Numbered from the stretch's first letter, positions 11,233-56,627 are shown. The stretch is 64,000 nucleotides of DNA from a virus (IMGVR_UViG_3300037245_000806:79034-143033), one strand, 5' to 3'. The notes: a model not told the origin generated them from the letters alone. Translations and numbers: made by a program.

Positions 11233-11263
11233 AGGTCAGTCCCCACGTAGTCGTGACACAGTG

Positions 11264-14194
11264 TTACGCTCTGGCCGGTCCGATCTTCGACATGCCATCG
11301 TACCAGATGAGTCCCTTCTTGCCGAGCGCTTTTGCGGCACTCATGAGTTTCTTGAAGTGAATACCGGTGAACTCAGGGCGCTTGGCGATTGCGGATAGCT
11401 TGTAGTCGCCCCCCTCGGCAGTCTTCTCCATGAACGCGAGCAACGCCGCCTGCGCCTTGCCCTTCGCGGCTGCCTCCTGAATGCCCTCCGCGACCTTCTC
11501 GGCACTCACAGAGTCCGTGCCATACATGGAGTCGTCAGCGGGCGTGAGGTACCGCTGAACCTGTCGCTTCGTGAAGCGGTCCGTGTTGCCGGTCAGCGTG
11601 GTGAGCGCCACGATGTCTGGCAGGATGTACTGGACGAACACGCGGCCTGCACCGATCCGCACGCCAGTGCCGCCCTTCATCTCCTTGTTCAGGATCGCAT
11701 TGCCCTTGTAGTTGTCGTTGTCATCGATCACGAGCCCGAGCTTCGTGACAAGCTTGTCATTGGACCCGGCGACACCCTCGGCAATGCCCTTCTTCCAGAG
11801 GTCGCAGATATCATCCTGCTCGATCTTCCCGCGCACCAGCTGGCAGGCATCGGGGAGGACCACAGACGAGCAAGTTCCGCAGCGCTTGTCGCCGTCCTTG
11901 TCAGTCTGCGAATGGCGGTAGTTCACTTCCTCCTTGGGCTTCCGGTCCACCGCTTTGTTGCGGGTGGGGGCGGCTGCCTCATCGACGGGCTCCAAGACTT
12001 TCTCACCCACGTCCTTCGAGGTCATTGAAACGCGCCAACCCTTGCCATTCTTCTTTCGCCACTTACGCATCAACCTCGCAGAGCCGCGCTTGACCACAAT
12101 ACCCGCAGGGTCCACAAGCACATAGCCCACCATGGCTTCCTGTAGTTTGATGATATTGGCAATGCCTTTCCCCGCCGGAAGCGAGCGCTGTGACGCCGGG
12201 GTGACACCAAGCTCCTTCTTCAGCGCAGCCCGGAACGATGGACTCTTCATGGCGTCAGCAAAGGACACGCTGGCGAAGCCACCACTGAGCCTGACCTTCC
12301 CGCCGTACTTCTTGGCGAGCGCGCGAAGTGACTTCGTGAACGCACTGTCGGTCGCCTCATCGAGCTTGACGCGTGTGGTATTGAAGCCCGCGCCCTTGAC
12401 TGCTCGAATGATGCGACTCACTGAGGCCACTGCTTCTGCTGCCGTCGCAGGCTTACGCCGTAGTGTTGCCATGAGTTTCTTCGCCCCCGTACCAATTGCC
12501 TTGAGCACCTTCACGAGCGTTGCGTCCGGTCGCTTGTCATCCACCGCGCGAATCGCATACGCCTTGATCTTATGCTTCCCCTTCGGACCGAAGTCAACAA
12601 GATACTCAGGATCAACGGTAGTGTCCTTCGCGACCAGTGACACAATGTTGCCCCGGAGGCTCGCAACCTTGACCTTCTGGCCGGGCTTGAAGAAGCTCTC
12701 CTCGTCGATGGATTCGCGCAGTGCTCTATGGGGCTCATCCGCGAGGCGATACTTCTGACCCTTGAGCGTGAACCAATGCTTCTTGCCGTGCGACACCATC
12801 ACGCCCTTGAGTTGCTCATCCGACACAGCTTCAGCAACCCCCAGCTGAACGTAAACGCGGTAGACGTGCGAGCGGAAGCTGCTGTCCTCCTCGATGTCGT
12901 CCAACGCGAGGTAAATGCGCTTGGCTGCCTGCGTGTTCAGGGCGATACGGTAGTTGGCTCCCGCCTTCTTCGCCTCGCCTATCGCTTTGACGCCAGCCCG
13001 ATCCAAGGCATCCTGCGGGTCGTCCACTTCGACGATCTTGTAACGCAACTCCTCGAACAGCTTCTTCGATACGACAATGTGCCGGGGCAGCTTGTACACT
13101 TCATCGATGGACTCGCGCGCGGACTTGAGTTCCTTGTACTCACTCCACCAACCGTCCAACGTCATGGCGTCCACTTGCGAGGTCATGACGCTCGCCGTGT
13201 ACCATCCCGACGCACCCCCGCCAATGAAGTAGTAGTAACCCTTACCCTTTACCAGCTTCTCCTTGACGCCCTTCGCCTTGAGCATCTTGTTGACCGTGCC
13301 GAGGGTCACCTTGCCCTCATCGATGGATTCATTCTTCCTCTTGAGCCGCACCTCGTCAGCCTTCACGGTGATCTCATTCGGGGTCTGCGTCTTCGTGCCG
13401 GGTGCGACACGTGCGTAGTCCTTTGGATCGATCAGGACCACGAGTGTCGCTGGACCCTTCGGATAGAAGACATTGACATCGCGCTTGATGATCTTGCCGG
13501 GGACCGGAGGCTTGACTGCGATGGGCTTGTACCCGCGCTTCCATCCGAACCTGCGGACGACCACGATCTCATCGCCCACCTTGTACGTTGGGCCTTTGTA
13601 AATGCTCGGTATGAAGATGCGCTTCTCATCGATGGCAGCCGCCTCGAACACTTTCTTCGGACCGCAGTAGTCACATACACCACATTGCGCGGTGCCACGC
13701 CACTGAGTATCCGGGTCGTCCTTGGGGCCGAACCTGATGTGCTCCGTCGAACCGCACTCGGGGCAGAGCACCTCACTGATATCTTCAGTGGCAAGCAAGG
13801 TACCGCTAAGCGGAACCGTGAAGAATCCCTGCTTGCCAGAGCCGCTCGTCCCCGAAGGCCCGTGGCCGCTGTAGTGCATATGCACCTGAGCACCAGAGCG
13901 AGCGTACTTCGGGAAATACTTGGCGATGATCTTCTGCGTCTTCTCAGGGCTGTGATACAGGCGCGCGACCGTGAAGTCCTTCGCGTCCTGTGACTTCCCC
14001 TTGGTGGCGTCATCGAACTTCAGGTACCGGGCCTTCATGAACGTGTCGGAGTATGCGATGCGCCGTAGTTTGCTGGCCATCTCAGTGGTGACGAGCACCT
14101 CGTACACGCGCAGCTGCTTGCCGACCACCTCGATGGCAAGGTCGCCCCGATAGACTTGGCCCGCACGCTTCTCAGCTTCTAGGATGGCTGGCAT
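11264..14194 (-). CDS. Modular polyprotein B (~976 aa), putative internal head protein precursor
   Basis: Start reassigned to ATG 14194 (MPAILEA, RBS GAAGGGG). Lys-rich modules are separated by ESIDEG, ESIDEV, ESIDEE, AAIDEK, KLDEA, EPVDEA, IQEA etc. Includes Zn-ribbon, SH3-like, HiPIP-like and wHTH modules. Confidence 0.75.
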   Translation of the reverse strand: MPAILEAEKRAGQVYRGDLAIEVVGKQLRVYEVLVTTEMASKLRRIAYSDTFMKARYLKFDDATKGKSQDAKDFTVARLYHSPEKTQKIIAKYFPKYARSGAQVHMHYSGHGPSGTSGSGKQGFFTVPLSGTLLATEDISEVLCPECGSTEHIRFGPKDDPDTQWRGTAQCGVCDYCGPKKVFEAAAIDEKRIFIPSIYKGPTYKVGDEIVVVRRFGWKRGYKPIAVKPPVPGKIIKRDVNVFYPKGPATLVVLIDPKDYARVAPGTKTQTPNEITVKADEVRLKRKNESIDEGKVTLGTVNKMLKAKGVKEKLVKGKGYYYFIGGGASGWYTASVMTSQVDAMTLDGWWSEYKELKSARESIDEVYKLPRHIVVSKKLFEELRYKIVEVDDPQDALDRAGVKAIGEAKKAGANYRIALNTQAAKRIYLALDDIEEDSSFRSHVYRVYVQLGVAEAVSDEQLKGVMVSHGKKHWFTLKGQKYRLADEPHRALRESIDEESFFKPGQKVKVASLRGNIVSLVAKDTTVDPEYLVDFGPKGKHKIKAYAIRAVDDKRPDATLVKVLKAIGTGAKKLMATLRRKPATAAEAVASVSRIIRAVKGAGFNTTRVKLDEATDSAFTKSLRALAKKYGGKVRLSGGFASVSFADAMKSPSFRAALKKELGVTPASQRSLPAGKGIANIIKLQEAMVGYVLVDPAGIVVKRGSARLMRKWRKKNGKGWRVSMTSKDVGEKVLEPVDEAAAPTRNKAVDRKPKEEVNYRHSQTDKDGDKRCGTCSSVVLPDACQLVRGKIEQDDICDLWKKGIAEGVAGSNDKLVTKLGLVIDDNDNYKGNAILNKEMKGGTGVRIGAGRVFVQYILPDIVALTTLTGNTDRFTKRQVQRYLTPADDSMYGTDSVSAEKVAEGIQEAAAKGKAQAALLAFMEKTAEGGDYKLSAIAKRPEFTGIHFKKLMSAAKALGKKGLIWYDGMSKIGPARA

Positions 14195-14204
14195 GACTGC
14201 CCCT

Positions 14205-14345
14205 TCAGATGAGGTCTTCGATGGAATCGAGCACGCGCTCTGTATCCGGCGACAGCATGATCTCCATGACGACCAATGGTAGTGCAATGACGAGCACAAC
14301 GAAAGCGCGAAGACTGAAGTTCAGCCGTGGCAGATCAGGATACAT
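14205..14345 (-). CDS. 46-aa single-TM protein
   Basis: Read by hand: MYPDLPRLNFSLRAFVVLVIALPLVVMEIMLSPDTERVLDSIEDLI; the ATG overlaps the TAA of the upstream gene and the ORF fills the gap. Confidence 0.5.
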   Translation of the reverse strand: MYPDLPRLNFSLRAFVVLVIALPLVVMEIMLSPDTERVLDSIEDLI

Positions 14346-14653
14346 TAGAGCGCCCCCTTTGGCGTCGGTCCACACCACTTGATCTCACCCTTGGTCAGGA
14401 AGAAATGGCTCTTGCATTCGCAGGTTCGCTGTAGTGATGGTGTCAATGTCACGCGCTTGTCCTCGGCGACGGTCAAGTCCCAGCGTGGACCCTTGCCGGG
14501 CAGCACTGGAATGTTCACAGCGCGCCCGCACCCGCAGGGGCACACAAACGCAACACACCAAATGCAATCGTCCTCGCCACAGACATAGACGACGCCCGGC
14601 TTCATGTCTTGGAGATCAGGCCGATAGTGTGTACGCTCAGCGAGCCAGATCAT
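14345..14653 (-). CDS. DUF6527-family protein
   Basis: FVCPCGCG...RWDL...VTLTPSL...CKSHFFLTKGEIKWC signature. Confidence 0.8.
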   Translation of the reverse strand: MIWLAERTHYRPDLQDMKPGVVYVCGEDDCIWCVAFVCPCGCGRAVNIPVLPGKGPRWDLTVAEDKRVTLTPSLQRTCECKSHFFLTKGEIKWCGPTPKGAL

Positions 14654-18500: not shown

Positions 18501-21500
18501 CTTCGTCGCCGCGATGTGCCCGTGCATGAATGAAGCATGAGCCGCATCACCACGGGTGCCACTGCGACCGTACTCCTCGATGGCCGCTGCTTCCGCGAGG
18601 TCTTCGTAGTCATCCCCATCAATGGACTCTGCAACATAGGTCGCATTGAGGGCCTGAGCCACAACGTCTTTACCGGACCCCTTCTTGGTGAGCTTCACGT
18701 GACGATACATCTGAAGGAGCAGTAGTCCCGCTGAGACCTCAGGCTCCGAGAGCCCCGTGGCCTTCACGATGGCCTTGCCAGTGATAGGCTTCTTCGCCTT
18801 CTTCACCGCAGCGAGCATCGCCTTCTCACGCTTGTCCAGCGGCGCGCGCTCATCGAGGTCGTCCTCGGAGACAGTCTTCTTCTTGCACTTCACGCAGTAC
18901 CCTGTCGCGGCGAGCACCTTGCTGCCGCAGCCCGGACACTTGACGGTCCCCGTAGTGGCCTTCTCATCGAGCATGGCTTCGGAGTGCAGGAGCAAGTCCT
19001 CCGCATCCTCATCCGCGATGTGCCCCATGTCCTCGCCGTCAATCACGAGCGAGTAGGTATCGTCGTCCTCCGTAACGATCTCGATCTCGCACTCCTTGAC
19101 CTTGCGGTCAAGCTGGATCATGTGACCAAGCTTGGCCTCGTCATCGCGGAGCGGCCTGACCCACGTGCCCTTGCCCTTCACCTTCCACCCGGCGGCGGTC
19201 ATACCGAGCGCGCGTGAAACAGCGCGGAGAATCGTCTTGATCTGGTTGTCGCCCTCAGCTGCCGGGGCACCCAACGTGACCTGCGCAGTCTTGCCAACAA
19301 CCTTGCGCGTTGCGATGGGGTTGTCGGCACCGCGACGAACTGCAACAAGGGCGTCACCCTTGATGCCGATGGTCCTCGTAGTACGCCCCTTGCCATCGCC
19401 GCCGCGCACGAAGTCCGAGATAACTATCTTGGCCTTCATCGGGATGCTATAGCCCTTCACCTCATCGACTGACTCGATGATCGAGAGCCCCTCTGCCTTG
19501 GCTGCCTTGCGGATTGCGTTGACCCATGTCTGACTCACGTTGCCCTGCGGATCACCGAGCACAATCCGGTTGCCCTTGCGCGTAGCGAGCGGGTCTTTGC
19601 GACCGCGCGAAGGTCCGGTGAGGATGTCGCCCTCGATGTCAAGGTTCTTCGCCTTGACGCCCGAGCCATCCTTGCCCTGCACGAAGGCCTTGATCATCTT
19701 GCGGTCGCCCGCCTTCAGCTTGTAGCCCATGGACTCCCGTAGTCGTGACACAGTGTTATCATCTTCGCCGAGGGCGAGGAGACGCATGCGACAGGCGCTT
19801 TCGACCGCTACGTCCCGAGTCGCTATAAACTCGTGGCTTCTCCCACTTTTGATGCCTTCAAACAGGCTCGTAACACAACGTTCGCCCTCCACAACAGTAC
19901 CATGCTCCTCAACGTACTCCTGAAAGAAGGCTTCAACCATGACGTCAAACTCGTTGGGAAGGTCCGCATAGAATTCAACCATCTTCTCAAGAAGGCTATG
20001 GACTTCCTGTAGTGTGATCGGAACCCTGTACGCCTGACCGCCAACCTGTACCAACGTCTTCCCATCATCCGTACCATCCCTGCGTGCGGTCCATGAAAGG
20101 AACTTGGACTGAAAGCCCTCCTCCCCCTCCATGTACAGCGGGCCTTGCTGTAGTTCAGGCTCGAAGCCCACGCACAGTACCTCACCGGGGTGGATCATCT
20201 TGTTCTCGCCTGAGCCCACCACGGGAGCGCCTATAAGATTGTGCGAACCCTCGGGGTCATCCTTACCCTTGTCTGACTCACTGACATCCTTGCTGAGGCT
20301 CTTGAGCATACGCAGGTCTGTTGCCACCGAAGCGTTCTTCTTCTTCTTGCCTGACTTGATATCCTTCCGCAGCTGCCTGAGGGCTTTCTTCATCCCGTCC
20401 GCTGTGGCCCGCACTCCATAGCCCTTGGCGTACTGCTTCAGTTCCCTGCTGTGACCGTAGGCTTCGTCGATACCTTCGTTGGGGGCCTTCGCGCTGAACT
20501 TCTTGACTTCCTTCTTGAGCACGTGTGTCTGGACTCCCGGTTCGAGTTCCACCTTGTACCCGGTCGCGGTCTTCTTGATAACCGTGACGGTCTTGCCCTT
20601 GGCGTACTTCTTGCCCTTGAGCTTCAGGTCCGTAGTGAGCATGTACGCCTCGTCGATAGACTCGAAGGGCTTCGTGAGTTTCGTCATGCGCGCATACGGG
20701 AGCTTGTCCCAATGCGCGTGGGCAGCCTTGACCACTTCAGCCTTCTCCTTCGGATCGCCGTAGTCACCGAAGGACATCGCAGCTTTCTTCCACCCTCTCG
20801 GGCTCAGCTTCTTCAGGCGCTTCTGAATCTTCTTGACCGTCTTCACCTCGTTGTCGGCGAAGCTCAGGATCATGAAGGCGACAAGGTCTTTGATGGTACC
20901 CTTGTCTGCTTCGTCGAGGTCTTCCACTTTGGGGAACCACAGCCCGCCGTTGCCATACCACCGCACGCCATTGGCATCCTCAACACAGAGGATACTGTTC
21001 TCGGCATCCTCATTGAGCGTGGAGTCGTGCAGGTCGGGGTACAGGAACTGGAACGCATTGTCAGTGACCCCACCCTCTTCGCAGATGGCTACGTAGTCTG
21101 CCTTGGTCTCGGGGCGCAGGCCCTCGGTCTTCATCGCGGGGTCTTCCTCTTTGGACTTCGCGGTTGCCTTGGCGAAGCCCGCACGCTTCGGGAAGCATTC
21201 GATGATCGTGAAGTCGCTGACCTGACCGGACTCGAAGTCGGTATCGCCAGCGGTGACGAGAGTGTCCAGCTTGCAGAAACCCCTCACACCTTCGTTGAGC
21301 TTCTGAAGAGGCTCGGCAGCAATCTTGCCTTGGAAGATCGCGAGGAACGTAGTGTCCGTTCCTTCGAGTTGTGTCTCAAGGAACTGCGTGATGAGGTCGC
21401 CGCACTTCTCCATGAGGTACGCCTCGAAGAGGATCGCGGCCATGCCCGTGTCGGTGTTGCTGAAGGCCGGGCTCTTGTCGGTGAAGTTCTTGGCGAACTC

Positions 21501-21840: not shown

Positions 21841-21869
21841 AGGATAGGTGAGCCTTAACACAGTGTCAA
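21841..21869 (-). promoter_or_regulatory. Sigma70-like promoter of polyprotein A, overlapped by the 13-bp palindrome
   Basis: Minus strand TTGACA-17 bp-TATCCT; palindrome at 21856-21868. Confidence 0.65.
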
Positions 21870-25091: not shown

Positions 25092-25803
25092 CACAACTTC
25101 CTTCCGGTGGTAGTTCAGGCATGCTCTTCCACATGCGGCGACGGTCAACAATCGCAATAGCCATCGTAACGAGCCCGGTCAGCAAACCTAGCCCCGCGAC
25201 CACAACCACTGAACACGCCAAGAGCCGCGTGCTTAGGAAGCGTGGTATCTGCAAGGCAAGGCCACTGGCTATGATGAGTGCGAGGGGGCGGTTGGTCCTG
25301 CTGCGTATCGCTTCAAGGAGTTCCATGCGCTTGTGGCAAATCGCGATTACATCCTCGTGCGCCGAGTCCTGCTTCTTTCGTAACACAGTGTCAACCTCCC
25401 GCCGATGATTACGGCGTGCCCGATGCACAGCAAGGCGACCGCGTAGTGCCTTCAACTCCTTCTCATGTGCCTCGGGAGACTTGGCCCGGCGAGCATCGTC
25501 AGCTGCGTCCAACTCACCCGACACAAAAGATATGTGGCAACTCAGACCGAAGTAATGCTCACGCTCAACAAGAGACGCCGGGATAGCGCCAGCAAACAAC
25601 GCGTCCTCAACACCGTCAGCGTCAAGCAGCATGTACCGTGCGCGACCATTTACGGTCATGGTTGTCGGGTCAAAGTCCATGATACGCGCGATACGCTTCA
25701 TGTACTCCGCGTCACCAAACAGGAAGTTATTGTGTAAGTACGGGCCATCAGACCGCCCCAGATACTTCCGTTGCTTGGCCACCGTAGTCACCCTCTCAGC
25801 CAA
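25066..25803 (-). CDS. Hypothetical protein with two C-terminal TM segments
   Basis: 245-aa ORF with a hydrophobic C-terminal pair; start uncertain. Confidence 0.5.
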   Translation of the reverse strand: MAERVTTVAKQRKYLGRSDGPYLHNNFLFGDAEYMKRIARIMDFDPTTMTVNGRARYMLLDADGVEDALFAGAIPASLVEREHYFGLSCHISFVSGELDAADDARRAKSPEAHEKELKALRGRLAVHRARRNHRREVDTVLRKKQDSAHEDVIAICHKRMELLEAIRSRTNRPLALIIASGLALQIPRFLSTRLLACSVVVVAGLGLLTGLVTMAIAIVDRRRMWKSMPELPPEGSCDVDASDCA

Positions 25804-28146: not shown

Positions 28147-28507
28147 CAGGGTCTCTCACGCTTTCAATGTCATCGCCGTAGAGGTACACCTTCGCGCGCT
28201 CCAAGAGATCGCGGAAGTCGTTAATCCAGTCATTGCCGCACTGCTGGCAGAAGACGCTCGTAGTCGCGTGACGTCCCGCCCCTTTGGTAACTCGGAGGCG
28301 TTTACCGGTGGGGCGCTCCCCACACATCTCGCACAACTTCTTGTGCGCGGAGCGCACGTCCTGAATGTCAGCACGCATGGTGCCGAACCAAAGGCCCTTG
28401 TTCTGAATGCGCCGCTTCTTCTTGGGCTCTTCTTCTCGTGACACAGTGTTACGAACCTCTCGTCTAGGCACACTGGCAGGGGACCGGCTTTTAGACCGGC
28501 CCCCCAA
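28139..28507 (-). CDS. Hypothetical Zn-finger protein
   Basis: CEMC...CQQC pairs. Confidence 0.6.
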   Translation of the reverse strand: MGGRSKSRSPASVPRREVRNTVSREEEPKKKRRIQNKGLWFGTMRADIQDVRSAHKKLCEMCGERPTGKRLRVTKGAGRHATTSVFCQQCGNDWINDFRDLLERAKVYLYGDDIESVRDPDA

Positions 28508-36606: not shown

Positions 36607-36627
36607 GGGCTACCCCTTGACACAGTG

Positions 36628-37050
36628 TTACGCGCTCTTACTGCGAAGGGCGCTCTTGAGGCTGGGGGAAAGCACGAACCGCACGTGCTTCCGCCGTGGT
36701 GTATCCTGCATCTCGCCGGTCTCCGGGTGACGGTACCGCGTTGGCTTCTTCATGAACGGCTCCAACGTTCCGATATTCGTCAGCGCAACCGGCTTGCCCT
36801 TACGTAGTGTGCCCCGTATCTTGTCCAGAATCAAGGCCCACAAAGACTGCGCCTCGTCACCGTCGAGCTTGAGCTTCTTGCTGAGGTATATCTCCATCCC
36901 GCGCCGGGTCAGCTTACCGCGTTTACTAAAGCCCTCACCCTTCGCTTTGGCACTGCCAGCAGATTTTCCACCGCGCTTACCACCACGCGCTCCCCGCTTG
37001 GTCGCTCCACTCGCAACAGCGGTCCGTGTTCTGGTTTTAGTGTCAGACAT
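36628..37050 (-). CDS. HU-family DNA-binding protein with a basic N-terminal extension
   Basis: GKPVALTNIGTL...RYRHPETGE...RKHVRF; strong RBS AAGGAG. Confidence 0.8.
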   Translation of the reverse strand: MSDTKTRTRTAVASGATKRGARGGKRGGKSAGSAKAKGEGFSKRGKLTRRGMEIYLSKKLKLDGDEAQSLWALILDKIRGTLRKGKPVALTNIGTLEPFMKKPTRYRHPETGEMQDTPRRKHVRFVLSPSLKSALRSKSA

Positions 37051-41713: not shown

Positions 41714-42705
41714 CCCTTTGCCCCTTTCAAGATTTCGAGCCCCAATTCAAGAAGCTCAGCCTCGTCACGTCCCTGAAACTCCATGTAGCGTCCAAGGACT
41801 TCCTCGTTCGTGTCCTTCGTGTGAACTGCAATCCGTGGTGCCTGCTCGTCGGTCTCGACGAGCGTGCCCTCGACCCAGCCGGTCTTACCCTGTGCGGCCT
41901 CAATAGCTGCAAGAGCGGCCTTGGGGTCAGAGGTCTTAACCCGCACGAAGTCACGCTTCCCCACCTGCGACACGTCGTCGTCAACCAAGATATGAAACTC
42001 GGGACTCACGTTGTTGTAATGGCACTTCCACTTGCCCGTCTTCGAGTCCACCACATAGAAGCCGCGCTTCTGCCCGGCGTCCCTGAAGTCGATCTGAAGC
42101 GGCGAGCCCACGTAGCGTACATTCGGAGTAATCACCTTGGGCTCGTGGACGTCACCAAGGAAGACGTGCCTGAACCGCTTCGGGCACAGGTACGAGAGCG
42201 GCACACCCTTGCCTTTGTAGCCTGCCTCCTCAAGGAGCACGTGGCTCAGGAGGTATTCGGACCCGTGCTTCTTTGACATTGTGTCAACGGCCTTGCGGTA
42301 CGCGTCGATGTCCTCAGTCCATGGGACCAGCAGGAACTCATCGAAGGTATCCGGCGTCTCGATCACGTGCGTATAGCCCCGGAAGACCTGAAGGCTATTT
42401 CGTTCCGGTGACCGCAGCAGCGCGTCGTGGTTCCCAACGAGCACCACGACATTCTCCAACACCGTCGCGGCCTCATAGAACTCCCGGCATACAATGTCGA
42501 GCACGCCGAGCGGAATCTCCGTGCGCGAGTTGAATATGTCGCCTATGACGAATATACCTTCGCAGCCTTCCGCAACGCTCGTCTTGACGATCCAGCGCCA
42601 GCACTCAATAAGGTCGATCAGGCGCGTAGTCAGCCCGCTGGGGTGCAACGTCGAGAGGCGTGAGTATTCATCAAATTGCAGGTCTGCCGTGATAGCCCAC
42701 TTCAT
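41710..42705 (-). CDS. SbcD/Mre11/gp47-like metallophosphoesterase nuclease
   Basis: TADLQ, IGDIF, VGNHD, LSH, LGDVH and YVGSPLQIDFRD motifs. Confidence 0.9.
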   Translation of the reverse strand: MKWAITADLQFDEYSRLSTLHPSGLTTRLIDLIECWRWIVKTSVAEGCEGIFVIGDIFNSRTEIPLGVLDIVCREFYEAATVLENVVVLVGNHDALLRSPERNSLQVFRGYTHVIETPDTFDEFLLVPWTEDIDAYRKAVDTMSKKHGSEYLLSHVLLEEAGYKGKGVPLSYLCPKRFRHVFLGDVHEPKVITPNVRYVGSPLQIDFRDAGQKRGFYVVDSKTGKWKCHYNNVSPEFHILVDDDVSQVGKRDFVRVKTSDPKAALAAIEAAQGKTGWVEGTLVETDEQAPRIAVHTKDTNEEVLGRYMEFQGRDEAELLELGLEILKGAKG

Positions 42706-43370: not shown

Positions 43371-43371
43371 A

Positions 43372-45365: not shown

Positions 45366-45528
45366 TCTTCTCCTCCTTGAGTATAGACCCGAGCGTCGGG
45401 AGCGAGAGCGCAATAGGCCACGTCGCCCACCACGGGTGGTCGCACAGTATGAGGGCCAGAGCGGTTGCAGAAAGACCGAGGAGGCAGATGGTCAGTGCCG
45501 CGTAGCGTGCGCCGAGTCGTCGTAACAC
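45352..45528 (-). CDS. 58-aa membrane protein
   Basis: Read by hand: the GTG inside the palindrome starts MLRRLGARYAALTICLLGLSATALALILCDHPWWATWPIALSLPTLGSILKEEKNAQG, which fills the gap. Confidence 0.45.
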   Translation of the reverse strand: MLRRLGARYAALTICLLGLSATALALILCDHPWWATWPIALSLPTLGSILKEEKNAQG

Positions 45529-45532
45529 AGTG

Positions 45533-46471
45533 TTACCGATCTAGGAGAATCCTGTACCTGTGATTGCCAATGACCGCTTCGCTGTCACCGACCCACGTGG
45601 CCGGAATCATGACAGTCTTGCCCTTCATCGCCTTGTACCGCCCGTCGCGATATGTTCGAGAATGCCGCCTGCGTTCGTGCGGGCGCTTGGGGCCATGAGC
45701 TTCGAGCGGCGGTAGGTTCAACCGCTTCCTGATCTCACTCGGCCTGAGGAGTGTATACGTCGGGCGGTCATGCCGCCTGCGGATACGCTCCTTGTGCTTC
45801 CCCTTGCGCGCCTGTCGCTTCCTGTGCCGTTCCGCTGCCTTGAGCGGACTGTCCTCGACAATGAAACGATTCGGGGAGTTGAAGTAGAAGACCTCCTGAA
45901 GCCCCACGTTCACGTTCCGCAGGATGGGGGGCGTCATCAGCTTGAGGCTCTCTTGATCCTTAGGGCGGCTTGCTATGTCAACGCCAATGATGCCGTCTGC
46001 CTTTGTGGCCAACGCTGACCACAACACCATGCCCATGAAGTCAATCGGGCCTTCAGGATTCAGCTTCACCGGGCCGAAGCGACCTTCGCTGATAAGCACG
46101 GAACCCTCGGGGTAGCCTTCGATCACTTTCTTGATCGCGGCTGCCTCCTCCGGGTCGTCACCTTCCACAAAGGCGTCCACATGCCACGCGTCTATGGGTT
46201 CAATCTCAAGGAACCCGCGCTCGCCGCTGAGCCCCTCTTGATCCTTCTCGGTATCCCACAGGACAGTACACGTCGCCTTGTCCTCGACGGCCATGGTCGG
46301 AAAGGGCAGGAAGAAATGCTCGTGGAGCATGGCAACAGTCTCCACGTCGCTATGCTTCGGTAGCACGTCCTGCGCCCTCGCGTCGAACAGGAAGACGCGC
46401 GCTTGCTCCATGCGCTTAATGACCGCCGGTATGTGTCGTTCAATGATGCCCGCAGCTTGATCAAAGATCAT
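45533..46471 (-). CDS. Phage hypothetical protein with a C-terminal PHxRRxH...W.G motif
   Basis: RPHERRRHSRTYR...IPATWVG; has its own promoter upstream. Confidence 0.7.
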   Translation of the reverse strand: MIFDQAAGIIERHIPAVIKRMEQARVFLFDARAQDVLPKHSDVETVAMLHEHFFLPFPTMAVEDKATCTVLWDTEKDQEGLSGERGFLEIEPIDAWHVDAFVEGDDPEEAAAIKKVIEGYPEGSVLISEGRFGPVKLNPEGPIDFMGMVLWSALATKADGIIGVDIASRPKDQESLKLMTPPILRNVNVGLQEVFYFNSPNRFIVEDSPLKAAERHRKRQARKGKHKERIRRRHDRPTYTLLRPSEIRKRLNLPPLEAHGPKRPHERRRHSRTYRDGRYKAMKGKTVMIPATWVGDSEAVIGNHRYRILLDR

Positions 46472-47511: not shown

Positions 47512-47542
47512 TGGGATGCTCCTATACAGCGGGGCAGACAGT

Positions 47543-47575: not shown

Positions 47576-47597
47576 CGTGATACCGCAGAAGGCGAGC

Positions 47598-48740
47598 CTA
47601 CTCCTCAGTCTCGTCCTCGGTCTCAGGCTTGTGCTTGCTGGCGGCATCGGCGACGTGCTCTTTGAACGCCTTGAGCGCGGCCTTGCCAGCCTTGGTCTTG
47701 TCGTCCAACTCGGGCGGGAACGGCGAGTCAATTGCGCCCCGATCCCACAGGAGGGTCGCCGCGACGGCACAACTCACGTGATACTCGGTCGTGCCGATCT
47801 CGTCGCCCTTCGCCTTGTGTACGATATCGCTGACCAGCCGTAGCATCGTCTCCTTCTCACGGCTGCCCTTCCGCACCTTGAGGGCGGCATCGCGAGCCGC
47901 ACCCTTGAGGTGCTGCGCGGACTTGCCCGGCGTGGGGGCGTTGTCCGCTTTCGCGGTCTTCTTGGCGAGCTTCTTGATGGCTGCCGCAGACATGCCGGGC
48001 TCAAGCGCGTCCTTGAACTCCTGCTTGCCACGCGTCTTGCCGTCAACCTTCGTCAGTTCGAGACCGGCGATGAGCGACATCGCGCCCGACTCGACGTGCT
48101 CCTGCACATCCTTCGGTGCGCCCATCAGCGTCATACACCTGCGAATCTTGCTGACGTGTAGCCCCGTCTCCTGCGCGATGCGGGGGAAGCCCCACTCGTG
48201 CTTCGTGGCGAGTTCGTTGACGACGCGCCCGATTTCTATCGGGTTCAGGTTCGTCCTGCCCTCTTCCGAGTTCTCAGCGACAGCAACCGCGCGGGCGCTC
48301 GCATCTTCGGATTCGAGGTCCATACGTATCGTGACCGCAAGCTCAGTCAGGCCGAGCAGGTCACTGGCGCGCAGACGACGCTCACCGGCGACGAGCAGGA
48401 AGGAGCCGGGCTTGTCGAGCGCGGGCCGCACGACGAGAGGGCTGAGCAGGCCGTTCTTCTTGATGGACTTGGCGAGCGGTTCGAGGTCGGTGACCACGGT
48501 GCGGGGGTTGAACCCCTGCACGATCTTGATGACCTTGCGGGGCAACATCGTGACGATGGACCCCTTGCCCTTCAAGGCCTTCTTCACGTCGCCAACGGAC
48601 AGCGTCACGCCGTGTAGCTCGACCGGTACAACCGGCGCGGACTTCCCCGTCTTCGCAGCGTTACTCGGCTTGGCGACCGTCTTCTTCGCCACCTTCTTCT
48701 TCGCCACCTTCTTCTTCCCCGTCTTCTTCTCCACAGCCAT
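47598..48740 (-). CDS. parB: ParB/Spo0J-family protein
   Basis: FNPR, LAKSIKKNGLLSPLVVR, AGERRLRA (CTP-binding box), AEN..R.NLNPIE and HTH IAQETGLHVSKIRR. Confidence 0.88.
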   Translation of the reverse strand: MAVEKKTGKKKVAKKKVAKKTVAKPSNAAKTGKSAPVVPVELHGVTLSVGDVKKALKGKGSIVTMLPRKVIKIVQGFNPRTVVTDLEPLAKSIKKNGLLSPLVVRPALDKPGSFLLVAGERRLRASDLLGLTELAVTIRMDLESEDASARAVAVAENSEEGRTNLNPIEIGRVVNELATKHEWGFPRIAQETGLHVSKIRRCMTLMGAPKDVQEHVESGAMSLIAGLELTKVDGKTRGKQEFKDALEPGMSAAAIKKLAKKTAKADNAPTPGKSAQHLKGAARDAALKVRKGSREKETMLRLVSDIVHKAKGDEIGTTEYHVSCAVAATLLWDRGAIDSPFPPELDDKTKAGKAALKAFKEHVADAASKHKPETEDETEE

Positions 48741-48803
48741 TTTGCGTCCTCCCTTTCAGCGGTCTGAGGGCGACCCCTGTCACCCCCTGTTCTTCATTGC
48801 GGA

Positions 48804-48832
48804 AGTATGCCATAATCTTAACACAGTGTCAA
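48804..48832 (-). promoter_or_regulatory. Sigma70-like parB promoter overlapped by the 13-bp palindrome
   Basis: TTGACA-17-CATACT; palindrome at 48819-48831. Confidence 0.75.
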
Positions 48833-48894
48833 GAAACTTTTGCCGTATCAGACGAAAAAGTTTATGGCGCTATACAGCCCCTGCGGGCTTATAC

Positions 48895-50160: not shown

Positions 50161-50431
50161 CACCGGCCTCCTTCTCACACAAAGCCACCAACGCCTCTAG
50201 ATCGTCACTGTCCCCAAGGGCGTTGTACACGCTGTTGACACTCTCAATCTCAACGCGAAGCGATGCAAAGAGGCGCTTACGTAGCTCCTCATTGATCTCC
50301 TTCAGATCACCCGTAACATCGTCGGTGAGCTTCCGGCTAACGCTCGCGTGGGGCTTGAAGAAAATGAAGCTCTCACCCACCTTGATGGTTGGGGAGCAAC
50401 CGACTGTGACCGTATCGCCTTCCTTGAGCAC
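50012..50431 (-). CDS. Hypothetical protein (3' end overlaps uvsX)
   Basis: GTG start VLKEGDTVTVG...; ~149-nt overlap with uvsX. Confidence 0.55.
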   Translation of the reverse strand: MLKEGDTVTVGCSPTIKVGESFIFFKPHASVSRKLTDDVTGDLKEINEELRKRLFASLRVEIESVNSVYNALGDSDDLEALVALCEKEAGDVTAQSSFQVSGGQGLAKGKDGKGSKGSKGGISKKSKPKGGVHKKTPQG

Positions 50432-50514
50432 CGTACACCCCCACGTTGACGGAGGAATGGAGGGAAGACTCCCGGCCACAACGCCTTGGGAGCCCTCCCC
50501 CCGCGTAGTAACGT

Positions 50515-51774
<1,260 letters not shown>

Positions 51775-51825
51775 GATACAGTCCCTTCGTATGCCCTCTG
51801 TGGCCACTGTGTGCTTCTGTGGGCT

Positions 51826-52326
51826 TCAGCCCTTATGCACTTCAGCCATGCGGGCGACCAAACGATCCAACGCGAAACACCGATGATCGAGGGCCTTTCT
51901 CATAACCCTCAGTATTCCATATTGCCTCCTATCCTCGTCTAACTTCGCCCTCGCACTACACACTTCGTTATGCGTATCTTTCACGGCCTTGACTGCTGAC
52001 TCTGTAATGCCGCCCGGAGTTTGCTCGTGAAGCTGGTCGCGCACCGGCTGGTCGTAACCACCCTCAACGAAAGCCAAATGCCTTTCAGACGTGCGAACAC
52101 GCCCAAGCTGCATCTCCTCCTGATACGCCCAAAAGGCATAACGTGCCGAAGCCTTCGCGGCCTCCTGAAGAAGCTTAACCGGATCGTCAGGTATGCGAAG
52201 CTCCCGCGAAGGCTTGAGCGTCACGACCTGCCCGTTCTCCAACTTGATCGAGATGCTCGGAATATCCCTGAGGCACATCTCGCCGGTCAGAATAACCCCG
52301 GTCTTCTTTGTCACACCATCCATCAA
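51826..52326 (-). CDS. UvsY-like recombination mediator
   Basis: Helical; ARYAFWA...ITESAVKA...ALDHRCFAL pattern; adjacent to the SSB and uvsX. Confidence 0.6.
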   Translation of the reverse strand: MMDGVTKKTGVILTGEMCLRDIPSISIKLENGQVVTLKPSRELRIPDDPVKLLQEAAKASARYAFWAYQEEMQLGRVRTSERHLAFVEGGYDQPVRDQLHEQTPGGITESAVKAVKDTHNEVCSARAKLDEDRRQYGILRVMRKALDHRCFALDRLVARMAEVHKG

Positions 52327-52375: not shown

Positions 52376-52854
52376 GTAGTTTTTCCCCGCCACACGATAT
52401 TCTTGCGTATGCCTTTGCGACGTTTGGCCAGCTTCGCGCTCTCGTCTTTGTGACACCAGACGCAGAGAGTCGCATACCCCTCCACGCCGCATGCACCACC
52501 ACCCTCTGACACCGACTTGACATGGTGTGCCTGCCACAGGCTCTTGAGTCCCTCATTGATCGTGAGCCCCAAGCGCCTGATCTCGGCATACAGCGCAGCA
52601 CCTCTAAAGGCACGCAACTCACGCTTGGCCTTGTTCGTGTCCTTGCCGCAGCGCGAGCAAACGCCCTTGTCCCGAAGCCACACAGCCCGGCGCACCCTAT
52701 GCCCACAGCGCACTTCGACCTCGCGTCGGCAGGCCGTCGAGCACCACGAGGTTCGCCTTCCGACGAGAGGCTCCTCGCACCATCGACAAAGCCATTGACC
52801 ATCATCGCTCTTCCTCTTCGGGTAGTCTTTCCACGACGCATACCGACTGGCCAC
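52372..52854 (-). CDS. HNH endonuclease with Zn fingers
   Basis: CRWC..CSTAC, RDKGVCSRCG and WQAHHVKSVSEGGG...TLCVWCHK motifs. Confidence 0.85.
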   Translation of the reverse strand: MASRYASWKDYPKRKSDDGQWLCRWCEEPLVGRRTSWCSTACRREVEVRCGHRVRRAVWLRDKGVCSRCGKDTNKAKRELRAFRGAALYAEIRRLGLTINEGLKSLWQAHHVKSVSEGGGACGVEGYATLCVWCHKDESAKLAKRRKGIRKNIVWRGKTT

Positions 52855-55800: not shown

Positions 55801-55985
55801 ACACACTTCTTCTTCTTCCTCGCGGCACCAGCTATCTTCGCCCTCTTGGTCTTGCGTACCACGCCGACCGACTTCTTCTTGCGCACAACGCCAGACGACT
55901 TCTTCTTGCGCACAACGCCAGACGACTTCTTCTTGACTTTACCCGCTGACTTACGCAGCGCAGCAACTCTGGCGCTAAGGCTCAT
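52854..55985 (-). CDS. Family A DNA polymerase with an N-terminal family-4 UDG-like domain and 3'-5' exonuclease
   Basis: UDG: LFIGSTPG, PFVGKSG, TNVVRCRPP, FHPAY. Exonuclease: FDTET, NEKFD, YAGMD. Polymerase: TGRLSS, ADYSQIELR, AKRVNFGIIYG, TVHDSI. Confidence 0.93.
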   Translation of the reverse strand: MSLSARVAALRKSAGKVKKKSSGVVRKKKSSGVVRKKKSVGVVRKTKRAKIAGAARKKKKCVAAAKTVDTTLARPLIAPDPEEAKSGCLWCPLAPFHKDFDTFKDAYCRDADKIVTKEKDPYTIKTRGIVDKPWKKVRVLFIGSTPGAKEDTKGLPFVGKSGDIIRMAATEGLDVSPEEVAYTNVVRCRPPRNRDPRKTEVKCCSYELMREIKARQPEVIVVLDNYSMEFLCGQAGITMFAGHFMKSTHPEWKNKDVLACFHPAYIMRFDYHAEKFAETFVLLNTYLNGSYEPLVGSGNYKTLTDLEDVRKLLIQFRKAEKVTFDTETGSLSPFDEEFPKLLCLSFSDKPGVGYTIPYDHADSPWCMGGPKECERPKLKKLLRDFFVDESIPKVAQNEKFDRKHIRKNLGRAPRGILRDTMLTHLVLDERRGTHGLKKLAFLYTGMGGYERPLELYIKSHKECDPKKGGSYANIPGKILFPYAGMDTDVTYRVDDGLIAEAEYQEDAALRRLSEIFLPQLSVVLSDLEYTGVQVDSDVVKKLDTEYRAKMAKYKKQIAKLPRVRAFVASQIKAGKTGKKKGDIFQFNPGSATQLRKVLFDYYKLQPVELTDSGLSRLGSRYAKLNAARKRQKQPAIGFTEVVQQAVEKKEWEYFTTKADVLHEYERQGNNLSPLILKYRKYETLYGTFVKPLLDRLDKWGRVHCSFLPHGTVTGRLSSADPNNQNIPRAAKPVYVSRFGDEGVILNADYSQIELRIAASWFHSPKMLEAYRNGVDLHAQTAADIAGMTLEAFMALPEKKRKEMRTKAKRVNFGIIYGIGPPGLVGTLKKDGVHMTVDETSELIDNYFSVRPGLKQGIEDYQAEAAITGILTSFTGRKRRLPEVFSSHKELASRALRQSINFPIQSGASDMTLMSLVLIHRIMQSEGFKSKIVLTVHDSIVFDCHVDEVLEIAKIAKDVMQNLPELSEEVLPGLDWSWLTVPIVADFEVGHSWGSLVGFDPDAVMAGGKSDEAMYKKKNTEIARDPVNVDELWDQMEFKAKKVA
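55866..55935 (-). repeat. 27-bp tandem repeat encoding KKKSSGVVR in the polymerase N-terminus
   Basis: gacttcttcttgcgcacaacgccagac repeated about 2.5 times. Confidence 0.85.
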
Positions 55986-55990
55986 GAAGC

Positions 55991-56167
55991 CTACCCCTCC
56001 ACAAGGTTGGCGGTGCCTGAAGACTCGCGACGTTCGCTACTACGCGGTACCGGGAGCAAGAAGACCGGGTGTATCGACGCGGCTTCAGCGTGACACTCCA
56101 TGCGATTAGGACATGTAGTACACTTGGCGGCGATCAGCGGCTTCCCGAAACAGGCTCGTCGTGACAC
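55991..56167 (-). CDS. Small Cys-motif protein
   Basis: GTG start inside the palindrome; ACFGK....CTTCPNRMEC. Confidence 0.55.
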   Translation of the reverse strand: MSRRACFGKPLIAAKCTTCPNRMECHAEAASIHPVFLLPVPRSSERRESSGTANLVEG

Positions 56168-56171
56168 AGTG

Positions 56172-56627
56172 TTACTCGCTTTTCCGTGTGGTCGCTTCTG
56201 CAAGGGCCACCTTGAGCGCACCCTCCGAGACCTCGCACGCTTTGAGCTTACCCTTGAGTTCCGAGACGTCCTTCGTGACGCGTTCGAGTGCCGTCTCGGC
56301 CTCACGCGCACGCTTGACCTGACCGTCAAGCTCGGACTTCCGCGACTCCGCAAGCTTCTTGGCCTCGCGAACCTGACCACGGAGAAGCTCGGCCTGCGAC
56401 TTCATGGCCCGCGTGCGTGTGACCACTTCAGCTTCAACGGCGTCATTGAGCCCACGCGTAAAGCCGTTGAAGAGGCTGGTCAACGCCTTCCCCATACCCG
56501 TGCGCCGCGCGCCATGCTCCACCTGACCGTCTGCGGTCGTAGTCAGCGCAGCGGCCTTCGCCGCACGCTTCTCCTTCTTCCGCTTCGCCTTCGCCTCCTG
56601 TGCTTCATTGCCATGTACGCCGCCCAT
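56172..56627 (-). CDS. Coiled-coil hypothetical protein
   Basis: Heptad-rich; RBS AAGGAGG. Confidence 0.65.
   Translation of the reverse strand: MGGVHGNEAQEAKAKRKKEKRAAKAAALTTTADGQVEHGARRTGMGKALTSLFNGFTRGLNDAVEAEVVTRTRAMKSQAELLRGQVREAKKLAESRKSELDGQVKRAREAETALERVTKDVSELKGKLKACEVSEGALKVALAEATTRKSE

What the first reader, a model, noticed from the sequence alone, without database searches (positions are those of the whole stretch)
11254..56174. Nine co-oriented copies of a 13-bp palindrome at gene junctions, promoters and inside genes: stoperator/operator or parS network
Seen in sequence: T[AG]ACAC-A-GTGT[CT]A at 11254, 19746, 21856, 25381, 28439, 36618, 45523, 48819 and 56162, where far less than one copy is expected by chance in 64 kb. 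All nine have the central A on the + strand. Four contain the TAA stop of the upstream gene (11264, 36628, 45533, 56172), and two of those also supply the GTG start of the next small ORF. Two overlap the TTGACA -35 of promoters (polyprotein A, parB). Three lie within coding sequence. Established knowledge: mycobacteriophage L5 stoperators are oriented 13-bp sites at gene junctions, and ParB proteins bind palindromic parS and can autorepress. Inference: the encoded ParB, whose own promoter carries a site, or an unseen repressor binds a genome-wide array, linking segregation and transcription control.
Basis: partly seen in the sequence, partly recalled or inferred. Interest (0 to 1): 0.8.

Follow-up and report, generated by a model that had tools for sequence, protein, structure and literature searches.

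The report
Evenly spaced ParB-type sites across phage
A 143-kb uncultured phage carries about 29 copies of a 13-bp DNA palindrome spread at strikingly regular intervals over its whole genome, most likely as loading and operator sites for its own partner-less ParB clamp protein; related phages show the same layout with different palindromes.

Summary
All nine copies are at the stated coordinates, with none expected by chance. The whole 143-kb phage record has 21 exact copies and 29 with a relaxed centre. This scan already reported the same array from an overlapping window of this genome (e1-5785348), and I tested it independently.

New findings:
- Sites are far more evenly spaced than chance (CV of gaps 0.5 against 0.95, P≤1e-4). 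The same holds in three relatives.
- Deep intragenic sites are about 3 times denser in genes of at least 1000 aa.
- Fifteen of 17 related phage records examined carry their own 13-17-bp palindrome. One is built from the two canonical parS heptamers in swapped order.
- A site lies within 90 bp of the parB gene in 9 of 13 genomes (3.1 expected), the highest of 18 conserved genes.
- About eight sites in this phage overlap sigma-70-like promoters, including parB's own. This is not so in relatives.
- ParA, integrase, sigma-70 domains and T7-type RNA polymerase were not detected, though the RNA polymerase search had no working control.

Best reading (about 0.55): a parS/OB-like loading-site array for an orphan ParB clamp, with KorB-like repression at a subset of sites. 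The stoperator and segregation readings are not supported. The strong strand bias of the central base remains unexplained.

The parts
11254..11266 (-). Site (sense TAACACTGTGTCA). Its TAA is the stop of the 1011-aa gene 11264-14299. The next ATG (gene 9661-11232) lies 21 nt downstream.
19746..19758 (-). Intragenic site in the 2081-aa ORF 15552-21797, about 2 kb from its start. It is followed 15 nt later by GGGAG plus an in-frame ATG.
21856..21868 (-). Site (sense tTGACACTGTGTTA). It embeds the TGA stop of the HNH endonuclease gene 21866-22378. It supplies the -35 of the promoter-like site 21869-21841 (TTGACA-17-TATCCT) upstream of the 2081-aa ORF.
25381..25393 (-). Site (sense tTGACACTGTGTTA) inside ORF 25066-25803, which has atypical composition (GC3 0.61). 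No acceptable -10 follows it.
28439..28451 (-). Site (sense gTAACACTGTGTCAcga) between the 197-aa gene 28526-29119 and the body of the 122-aa ORF 28139-28507. Probably intergenic.
36618..36630 (-). Site whose TAA is the stop of the 140-aa gene 36628-37050 (phrog_379 'DNA binding protein'). The GTG of the next gene (35911-36606) lies 11 nt downstream.
45523..45535 (-). Site whose TAA is the stop of the 312-aa AcrVA2-like gene 45533-46471.
48819..48831 (-). Site (sense tTGACACTGTGTTA) covering the -35 and upstream spacer of the parB promoter 48832-48804 (TTGACA-17-CATACT, TG-extended), 78 nt before the parB ATG.
56162..56174 (-). Site whose TAA is the stop of the 151-aa gene 56172-56627, upstream of the UDG-PolA gene.
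4610..4622 (-). Variant site (sense TGACA-CAA-TGTTA).
6612..6624 (-). Variant site (sense TGACA-TTG-TGTCA), deep inside the 1165-aa gene 4779-8276.
42274..42286 (-). Variant site (sense TGACA-CAA-TGTCA) inside the SbcD-like gene 41710-42705. It is conserved at the orthologous codons in relative G001 despite different encoded residues.
47598..48740 (-). parB, 380 aa. Features: Lys-rich disordered N-tail, ParB_N with GERRLRA, HTH_ParB, helical C-terminal domain. No ParA in the genome. Proposed binder of the sites.

Best explanation
The palindromes are the specific DNA sites (parS / OB / NBS-like) of the phage's own orphan ParB.

Proposed mechanism, all inferred:
1. ParB is made from a sigma-70-type promoter that itself carries a site.
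2. ParB binds as a dimer, one HTH per TRACAC half-site.
3. Like other ParB-family CTP switches, it closes into a clamp and slides or spreads away from the site.
4. Sites are kept no more than about 8.7 kb apart over the whole 143 kb, so the entire genome can be loaded.
5. At the roughly eight sites that double as the -35 of sense-directed sigma-70-like promoters, including parB's own, site-bound ParB would occlude RNA polymerase. That would give autoregulation and shut-off of a gene subset, as KorB does on plasmid RK2.

Shown here: the sites, their regular spacing, their placement, their turnover in relatives, their linkage to parB, and the ParB identity of the protein.

Inferred: binding itself, CTP-dependent sliding, repression, and the purpose of genome-wide loading (condensation, self-marking or global transcription control).
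For: 1. The sites are real and genome-wide.

2. They look like targets of a symmetric dimer on double-stranded DNA.
- Degeneracy is symmetric in both halves and in the flanks: C-K-T-R-A-C-A-C | W.
- Positions 2 and 12 do not covary. The commonest form, TAACAC..GTGTCA, would be an A·C mismatch in a hairpin.

3. Spacing is regular.
- The CV of gaps is 0.51, 0.49, 0.40 and 0.32 in G000, G001, G009 and G004.
- Both the random-position null and the gene-junction null give about 0.95, apart from 0.78-0.85 for the short G004.
- P≤1e-4 in G000, G001 and G009, and 0.003-0.005 in G004. G013 gives P=6e-4.
- Deep intragenic sites are 3 times denser in genes of at least 1000 aa (P=5e-4).
- This fits coverage by a spreading protein. 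It does not fit gene-by-gene regulation.

4. Sites are linked to parB. A site lies within 90 bp of a parB end in 9 of 13 genomes, against 3.1 expected (P=2e-4). This is the highest of 18 conserved genes, the site can be on either side, and the linkage persists across motif changes.

5. The relative G014 uses GTGAAACG-S-CGTTTCAC, which is the two canonical parS heptamers.

6. The ParB recognition helix varies in parallel with the motif. It reads G-x-H/N in phages with GAC arms and S/T/Y in phages with AAC arms.

7. The protein is a ParB.
- Pfam ParB_N scores 46 bits and HTH_ParB 33 bits.
- The best PDB sequence match is Caulobacter ParB.
- The AlphaFold2 model (pLDDT 84.5) matches ParB, Noc and KorB clamps, with KorB-KorA-DNA 8qa9_B at TM 0.76.

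8. Eight of 23 sense-oriented -35-like halves have a -10 at 16-18 nt, against a 3% background. Only 1 of 22 do on the antisense strand.

9. The site at orthologous SbcD codons is kept between G000 and G001 despite amino-acid change.
Against: - There is no binding data.
- The ParB tree of the relatives is unresolved. The helix/motif parallel therefore reflects few independent events and could be shared ancestry.
- G002 has TGACA arms but N..M instead of H..K in the helix.
- Four of the 13 genomes have no site within 90 bp of parB (G002, G003, G007, G008).
- A symmetric dimer cannot explain why the central base is T on the sense strand in 24 of 27 sites. G014 (17:3), G011, G005 and G006 are similarly one-sided.
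- Promoter overlap is not seen in G001, G009 or G013, so the repressor role may be specific to this phage.
- Box I reads NPR where H. pylori Spo0J has QPR. CTP hydrolysis may therefore differ from canonical ParB.
- Other DNA-binding proteins of the phage were not surveyed exhaustively.
Confidence: 0.55

Rival explanations
1. The sites are operators of a different, unidentified phage-encoded dimeric DNA-binding protein. It would act as a global repressor or temporal switch, and ParB would be unrelated or merely one of its targets.
For: The palindromic architecture and the promoter overlap at about eight sites fit any dimeric repressor. The helix/motif covariation for ParB is weak. Other DNA-binding candidates exist: phrog_379 at window 36628-37050 and an NrdR homologue noted at genome 56-544.
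Against: Neither candidate has a homologue in G001, which carries 39 sites, although G001 is only 68% complete. The parB linkage across 13 genomes with changing motifs and the parS-heptamer motif of G014 point to ParB. Regular spacing and sites placed inside long genes are not expected of a classical operator set.
Confidence: 0.2
2. The element is strand-specific, either as single-stranded nucleic acid or through a directional machine. Possibilities are a promoter for an unrecognised phage RNA polymerase or sigma factor, a strand-specific nick or modification site at the central T (as with the T5-type nicks), or an mRNA signal just upstream of ribosome-binding sites.
For: The central T is on the sense strand in 20 of 21 exact sites. 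G014, G011, G005 and G006 are similarly one-sided. Twelve of 20 sense sites start with the upstream stop codon. At the ten junction sites with an assignable downstream gene, that gene's start lies 11-22 nt beyond the motif.
Against: G001 (23:15), G009 (10:7) and G013 use both orientations within co-directional gene blocks. No conserved sequence flanks the palindrome. No T7-type RNA polymerase or sigma-70 domains were found (the first had no valid control). Hairpin pairing is not maintained. Junction placement is expected for any element that avoids coding sequence in a genome that is 92% coding.
Confidence: 0.12
3. These are L5-type stoperators: sites for an immunity repressor that blocks transcription elongation throughout a prophage.
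For: The sites are 13 bp, numerous, at gene junctions, and co-oriented with transcription in this genome.
Against: The sites are palindromic, not asymmetric. The orientation rule fails in relatives. No integrase and no ParA were found. The gene content is that of a large lytic-type phage with a T4-like portal and its own replisome.
Confidence: 0.03
4. The sites are recombination or boundary sequences, such as module-shuffling sites like the PeSL cassettes of T4-type phages, or sites for a site-specific recombinase.
For: The sites lie at gene junctions. In G001 many follow terminator-like hairpins and T-runs. A genome-specific central triplet within conserved arms resembles crossover cores.
Against: No recombinase was found. 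Regular spacing and conserved intragenic sites are not explained. Five-base arms with a 3-bp core are too short for known recombinases.
Confidence: 0.05

Closest known systems
KorB and its 12 OB operators (13-bp palindrome TTTAGCSGCTAAA) on IncP plasmid RK2 (PMC11790492)
   Same: Both involve a ParB-family protein with a 13-bp odd-centred palindrome, in many dispersed copies. Some copies overlap promoter -35 regions and others lie far from any promoter. KorB is a CTP-dependent sliding clamp loaded at OB. The model of this ParB superposes on the KorB-KorA-DNA complex 8qa9_B (TM 0.76).
   Different: Here the replicon is a lytic-type 143-kb phage. It has 29 sites, regularly spaced over the whole genome and also inside long genes. 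No ParA/IncC was found, and a KorA-like partner was not looked for. By sequence the protein is nearer to chromosomal ParB (E 1.7e-16) than to KorB (E 2e-5).
Noc and its dispersed NBS sites on the Bacillus subtilis chromosome
   Same: Noc is an orphan ParB paralogue without ParA. It has tens of palindromic sites scattered over a genome and spreads from them. Noc structures are among the best fold matches.
   Different: Noc has an N-terminal membrane-targeting helix and acts in division-site selection. This protein has a Lys-rich, disordered N-tail and sits in a phage replication module.
Chromosomal ParB-parS (TGTTTCAC|GTGAAACA)
   Same: It is the best sequence match (Caulobacter ParB 6T1F). A site is adjacent to the parB gene. 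The dyad core CAC|GTG is shared. The relative G014 uses the same two heptamers.
   Different: The site has an odd 13-bp architecture with an extra central base pair. Sites are not clustered near an origin. There is no ParA, so no partition motor.
Mycobacteriophage L5 stoperators, and the dispersed 17-bp palindromes of Cluster O mycobacteriophages (PMC4351075)
   Same: These are many copies of a short conserved sequence at gene junctions throughout a phage genome. The Cluster O repeats also have dyad symmetry, and their binder is unknown.
   Different: L5 sites are asymmetric, strictly oriented, and bound by the immunity repressor of a temperate phage. In neither case is ParB implicated. I found no mention of regular spacing for them, though I read only the abstract of PMC4351075.

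Membership tests
ParB/Spo0J-KorB-Noc family (protein, window 47598-48740) | ParB N-terminal (CTPase-fold) domain with the GxxRxxA box | tested here: met
   PF02195 scores 46 bits against a cut-off of 26.3. AGERRLRA is conserved in the 37-sequence alignment.
ParB/Spo0J-KorB-Noc family (protein, window 47598-48740) | ParB-type helix-turn-helix DNA-binding domain | tested here: met
   PF17762 scores 33.2 bits against a cut-off of 22.6. The region aligns to the parS-binding domain of Caulobacter ParB 6T1F.
ParB/Spo0J-KorB-Noc family (protein, window 47598-48740) | Overall fold of NTD plus DBD like solved ParB clamps | tested here: met
   The AlphaFold2 model has pLDDT 84.5. Foldseek finds ParB, Noc and KorB at E 1e-10 to 1e-8.
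ParB/Spo0J-KorB-Noc family (protein, window 47598-48740) | C-terminal dimerisation domain that closes the clamp | tested here: inconclusive
   A confident helical domain is predicted at residues 293-368. No hit to the canonical ParB C-terminal Pfam family appeared, and the solved matches are C-terminally truncated.
ParB/Spo0J-KorB-Noc family (protein, window 47598-48740) | CTP binding and hydrolysis | not testable with these tools
   Boxes II and III are present. Box I reads NPR where H. pylori Spo0J has QPR.
ParABS partition system | Cognate ParA ATPase encoded with ParB | tested here: not met
   PF13614 finds nothing in the 98%-complete genome, while the control rang in 14 of 14 genomes. It should not be filed as a partition system.
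parS / OB / NBS-type ParB sites (DNA) | Short palindrome present next to the parB gene | tested here: met
   A site lies within 90 bp of a parB end in 9 of 13 genomes, against 3.1 expected (P=2e-4). This is the top of 18 conserved genes.
parS / OB / NBS-type ParB sites (DNA) | Site sequence covaries with the ParB recognition helix | tested here: inconclusive
   The pattern is H/N for GAC arms and S/T/Y for AAC arms. The tree is unresolved and G002 is an exception.
parS / OB / NBS-type ParB sites (DNA) | Direct, specific binding by ParB | not testable with these tools
   Needs EMSA or ChIP.
KorB-type global repression | Sites overlap promoters of regulated genes, including autoregulation | tested here: met
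   Eight of 23 sense halves have a -10 at 16-18 nt against a 3% background. The parB promoter is among them. This is not met in relatives G001, G009 and G013.
L5-type stoperators | Asymmetric site, with orientation tied to the direction of transcription | tested here: not met
   The site is a palindrome whose only asymmetry is the centre. Orientation is mixed in G001, G009 and G013.
Phage-specific promoters (T7-, N4- or T4-late-like) | A cognate phage RNA polymerase or sigma factor, and all sites in the sense orientation upstream of genes | tested here: not met
   No PF00940 hit, though the control was silent. No sigma-70 r2 or r4 hits, with valid controls. Sites occur inside genes and on both strands in relatives.

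The most novel reading that the evidence does not exclude
A whole clade of 140-156-kb phages with T4-like portals uses an orphan ParB clamp, loaded from lineage-specific palindromes kept at regular intervals, to coat or organise the entire viral genome during lytic growth. This could mark phage DNA as self, condense it into a compartment, or provide a mobile clamp that controls transcription genome-wide. The asymmetric central base would give each loading site a polarity relative to transcription or replication.
Probability: 0.3. Interest if true: 0.85.

Novelty: new variant of a known kind. Interest (0 to 1): 0.7.

Why it matters
Orphan ParB proteins are common in phages and other mobile elements, and their roles are largely unknown (PMC12704722; 10.1101/2024.12.31.630880 notes ParB without ParA in virulent phage genomes).

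This system offers a predicted protein, a predicted site and a clear genome-level signature: regular spacing, sites placed inside very long genes, and site turnover between relatives. That makes the question 'what does a ParA-less phage ParB do?' directly testable by EMSA, ChIP-seq and single-molecule sliding assays.

If ParB coats a lytic phage genome from evenly spaced loading sites, that would be a new use of the CTP-clamp mechanism, beyond segregation (ParABS), nucleoid occlusion (Noc) and plasmid silencing (KorB).

The set of related phages with different palindromes and different recognition helices is also a natural specificity series for the ParB DNA-binding domain.

Tried and rejected
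**Readings tested and rejected**
- RNA or DNA hairpin. Positions 2 and 12 do not covary and A·C is the commonest combination. G014's dominant form keeps a fixed mismatch.
- T7/SP6-like promoter (the motif resembles SP6 TGACACTATAG). No PF00940 hit, though the control was uninformative. Orientation is mixed in relatives.
- Phage sigma factor. None detected by Pfam r2 or r4.
- NrdR homologue as the binder (lead from note e1-5785349; NrdR boxes have ACAC..GTGT ends). No homologue in G001, which has 39 sites. The geometry also differs.
- ParB-dependent thymine dioxygenase acting on the central T (PMC13229309). Those ParBs lack an HTH, and no Tet_JBP hit was found here, though the control was silent.
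- Copy-paste spread as the cause of the orientation bias. There is no flank similarity beyond ±3 bp.

**Searches that led nowhere**
- megablast of 12 kb of the window (40000-52000) against the phage collection found no match.
- ParB as a single query in IMG/VR gave one distant hit.
- An exact 15-mer scan of IMG/VR gave only single chance hits.
The 144-kb contig with the 66%-identical ParB (P0002) and other long Logan/ENA contigs could not be fetched.

**Weak or inconclusive results**
- The ParB tree of 12 relatives is unresolved.
- No motif was found in G010, G017 or G018.
- Fisher combination of per-genome percentiles for parB adjacency, under the gene-based null, is only P=0.08. The count-based test gives 2e-4.

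Full report
**1. The observation**

The pattern TRACACAGTGTYA occurs nine times in the window, all on the + strand and at the stated coordinates. None is expected in dinucleotide-preserving shuffles. Three one-mismatch copies lie at 4610, 6612 and 42274.

The window is bases 79034-143033 of a 143,033-bp IMG/VR phage record that is 98% complete. That record holds 21 exact copies, 20 in one orientation. It holds 29 copies of the relaxed form TRACA-NNN-TGTYA, against 0.18 expected. The central triplets on the sense strand are CTG 20, TTG 3, CAA 2, and TTA, CAG, CGA and CAC once each.

Nearly all genes are on the minus strand. On the gene-sense strand the motif therefore reads T-R-A-C-A-C-T-G-T-G-T-Y-A.

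**2. Anatomy**

Information content extends symmetrically to about 17 bp: C-K-TRACAC-W-GTGTYA-M-G. Nothing is conserved further out.

The two degenerate positions vary independently in the two halves. The commonest form, TAACAC..GTGTCA, would be an A·C mismatch in a hairpin. This is the signature of two half-sites read on duplex DNA by a dimer. It is not the signature of a folded strand.

In 12 of the 20 sense sites the first triplet (TAA or TGA) is the in-frame stop of the upstream gene. Where a downstream gene start could be assigned next to the site, it follows 11-22 nt later behind its own RBS. Both ends of the palindrome read TRA, and the genome is about 92% coding. This placement is therefore what any element that avoids coding sequence would show.

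Two sub-forms exist.
- tTGACAC-T-GTGTTA: the left half plus the preceding T forms TTGACA.
- gTAACAC-T-GTGTCA-cga.

The two best sigma-70-like promoter matches in the scanned regions are exactly the ones overlapped by sites. These are 21869-21841 upstream of the 2081-aa ORF and 48832-48804 upstream of parB. Genome-wide, 8 of 23 sense-oriented -35-like halves have an acceptable -10 at 16-18 nt, against a 3% background. On the antisense side only 1 of 22 do.

**3. The phage**

Recognisable genes:
- T4-like portal, large terminase and tail genes.
- A UDG-PolA fusion, DnaB-like helicase, primase, SSB, RecA, FEN, PIF1 helicase and SbcCD.
- A 380-aa ParB.

Families not detected:

| Family | Result | Control |
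|---|---|---|
| ParA (PF13614) | none | valid |
| Tyrosine integrase (PF00589) | none | valid |
| Sigma-70 regions 2 and 4 | none | valid |
| T7-type RNA polymerase (PF00940) | none | silent |
| Tet/JBP dioxygenase (PF12851) | none | silent |

ParB itself has these features:
- ParB_N with the AGERRLRA box, and HTH_ParB.
- Its best match among solved structures is Caulobacter ParB 6T1F.
- The AlphaFold2 model (pLDDT 84.5) shows a disordered Lys-rich tail, the N-terminal and HTH domains, and a separate helical C-terminal domain.
- Its best fold matches are ParB, Noc and KorB clamps.

**4. Relatives**

I used ParB and portal alignments to find related IMG/VR records and fetched them whole (sequences). 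Fifteen of the 17 relatives examined carry their own dispersed palindrome. None was found in G010, G017 or G018, although G017 has a single TGACA-NNN-TGTCA match.

| Record | Motif | Copies / length |
|---|---|---|
| G001 | tTGACAY-W-RTGTTAa | 39 / 95 kb |
| G013 | TTGACR-YWR-YGTCAA | 25 / 124 kb |
| G006 | TGACAC-S-GTGTCA | 4 / 24 kb |
| G009 | aGTGACA-CGC-TGTCACt | 17 identical / 156 kb |
| G002 | atcGTGACA-NNN-TGTCACgat | 6-7 / 36 kb |
| G008 | GTGAC-N5-GTCAC | 3 / 24 kb |
| G016 | TGACA-NNN-TGTCA | 8 / 17 kb |
| G015 | TTGAC-N5-GTCAA | 3 / 23 kb |
| G003 | GGACA-NNN-TGTCC | 5-6 / 20 kb |
| G012 | TGGAC-N5-GTCCA | 5 / 74 kb |
| G011 | TGGCAG-C-CTGCCA | 5 / 48 kb |
| G007 | CAACAA-W-TTGTTG | 2 / 22 kb |
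| G004 | attAAACG-W-CGTTTaat | 9 / 31 kb |
| G005 | gcAAACA-S-TGTTTgc | 6-8 / 28 kb |
| G014 | GTGAAMCG-S-CGKTTCAC | 22 / 150 kb |

The G014 motif consists of the two heptamers of canonical parS (TGTTTCAC|GTGAAACA) in swapped order. That identity rests on established knowledge of the parS consensus.

**5. Spacing**

Sites are much more evenly spaced than chance.

| Record | CV of gaps | P (null CV about 0.95 except where noted) |
|---|---|---|
| G000 | 0.51 (largest gap 8.7 kb against 19.5 kb expected) | ≤1e-4 |
| G001 | 0.49 | ≤1e-4 |
| G009 | 0.40 | ≤1e-4 |
| G004 | 0.32 | 0.003-0.005 (null CV 0.78-0.85) |
| G013 | 0.67 | 6e-4 (junction null CV 1.12) |

Except for G013, tested only against the junction null, these hold against both random positions and random choices among gene junctions.

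Sites deep inside genes are three times denser in genes of at least 1000 aa than in shorter genes. The pooled rates are 0.157 against 0.054 per kb (P=5e-4). Where junctions are too far apart, sites are accommodated in coding sequence.

One intragenic site is kept at orthologous codons of the SbcD-like gene in G000 and G001. The encoded residues differ and the segment is variable in the family.

Regular whole-genome coverage is what a protein that spreads or slides from loading sites would need. Gene-by-gene operators or promoters would not require it.

**6. Link to ParB**

A site lies within 90 bp of one end of parB in 9 of 13 genomes, against 3.1 expected from each genome's own genes (Poisson-binomial P=2e-4).

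Among 18 conserved genes, parB scores highest. Its two neighbours, RecA and FEN, score only through the same sites. The site is upstream in five genomes and downstream in five, and G005 has both. Cis-linkage of a DNA-binding protein gene with its site, maintained while the site sequence changes, is typical of parB-parS.

The recognition helix was aligned to Caulobacter ParB. It reads G-x-H/N in phages whose arms contain GAC, and S, T or Y in phages whose arms contain AAC. This support is only weak, because the ParB tree is unresolved and G002 deviates.

The parB promoter (TTGACA-N17-xAxxxT) is recognisable in six genomes. It carries the palindrome over its -35 in G000, G001 and G006.

**7. What does not fit**

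The centre is T on the sense strand in 24 of 27 W-centred sites in G000. One-sidedness also appears in these relatives:
- G014, 17:3, with the three reversed sites consecutive.
- G011, 5:0 on the record's strand.
- G005, 6:0.
- G006, 4:0.

It does not appear in G001 (23:15), G009 (10:7) or G013.

A symmetric dimer cannot sense this. Base composition predicts the opposite bias, since the sense strand is purine-rich. The flanks show no copy-paste relationship. I leave this unexplained. Candidates are a polar interaction with RNA polymerase, the replisome or the packaging motor, or a strand-specific nick or modification.

Promoter overlap is a feature of G000 and of the G006 parB promoter. It is not a feature of G001, G009 or G013. 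Repression is therefore probably a secondary use of the sites.

**8. Comparison with known systems**

The closest analogues are listed here. Their site sequences and copy numbers are stated from established knowledge unless a call or paper is cited.
- KorB/OB on RK2: a 13-bp palindrome in dispersed copies, some over promoters, with a CTP sliding clamp (PMC11790492).
- Noc/NBS: an orphan ParB paralogue with tens of scattered sites.
- Chromosomal ParB-parS.

The system is not a ParABS partition system, because no ParA is present. It does not meet the defining features of stoperators.

My literature searches found orphan phage ParBs noted but not explained (PMC12704722; 10.1101/2024.12.31.630880). 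They found a ParB-dependent thymine dioxygenase whose ParB lacks an HTH (PMC13229309). They found no description of a genome-wide, regularly spaced ParB site array in a lytic-type phage. This is absence in a limited library, not proof.

**9. Relation to earlier notes of this scan**

A follow-up on an overlapping window of the same genome (e1-5785348) reached a ParB/KorB-like reading and claimed co-change in relatives. I reproduced the array and the ParB reading from independent analyses. I find the co-change suggestive but not established.

This report adds:
- the regular spacing;
- the enrichment of sites in long genes;
- the parB-adjacency statistic with controls;
- the parS-heptamer motif of G014;
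- the orthologous intragenic site;
- the clade-wide pattern of the orientation bias.

**10. Verdict**

The best explanation is a parS/OB-like loading-site array for an orphan phage ParB, with KorB-like repression at a subset of sites (confidence about 0.55). It is a new variant of a known kind. Interest is 0.7.

Noticed in passing
Relative G014 = IMGVR_UViG_3300010355_001758 (loci L259-L266), e.g. 94795-94811: Its 22-copy motif GTGAAMCG-S-CGKTTCAC is built from the two heptamers of canonical parS in swapped order. The perfectly symmetric copy sits 16 bp after the parB stop.
   Followed up: partly
Relative G007 = IMGVR_UViG_3300008516_000402, about 9002-11149: Two tandem parB paralogues with different recognition helices (TYAERIRR and VEPMRVRR). 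This is a possible natural specificity duplication.
   Followed up: no
window 19746-19790 (-): The intragenic site in the 2081-aa ORF is followed 15 nt later by GGGAG and an in-frame ATG. This could be an internal start giving a nested C-terminal product.
   Followed up: no
window 45533-46471 (-): A conserved 312-aa protein two genes downstream of parB. It has no Pfam or PHROG hit but is AcrVA2-like (PF26125) by language-model features (score 0.98) and by structure.
   Followed up: partly
window 52854-55985 (-): The DNA polymerase A carries an N-terminal uracil-DNA-glycosylase-superfamily domain in the same 1043-aa protein.
   Followed up: no
window 21866-22378 (-) and 25066-25803 (-): An HNH endonuclease gene and a 245-aa ORF have GC3 of about 0.6, against 0.75-0.83 in neighbouring genes. 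This suggests recent acquisition. Both touch a palindrome site.
   Followed up: no
window 47598-48740 (-), ParB residues 76-80: Box I reads GFNPR where H. pylori Spo0J has YQPR. From memory, not checked here, the glutamine is needed for CTP hydrolysis in Myxococcus ParB, so this clamp may hydrolyse CTP slowly.
   Followed up: no
Relative G013 = IMGVR_UViG_3300035158_000293, 68944-69390: Seven repeats about 60 bp apart with CGCACA..TGTGCG cores. This is an iteron-like array that could be a replication origin.
   Followed up: no
NrdR boxes share ACAC..GTGT ends with this motif. I found no homologue in G001 and did not examine it further.
   Followed up: partly
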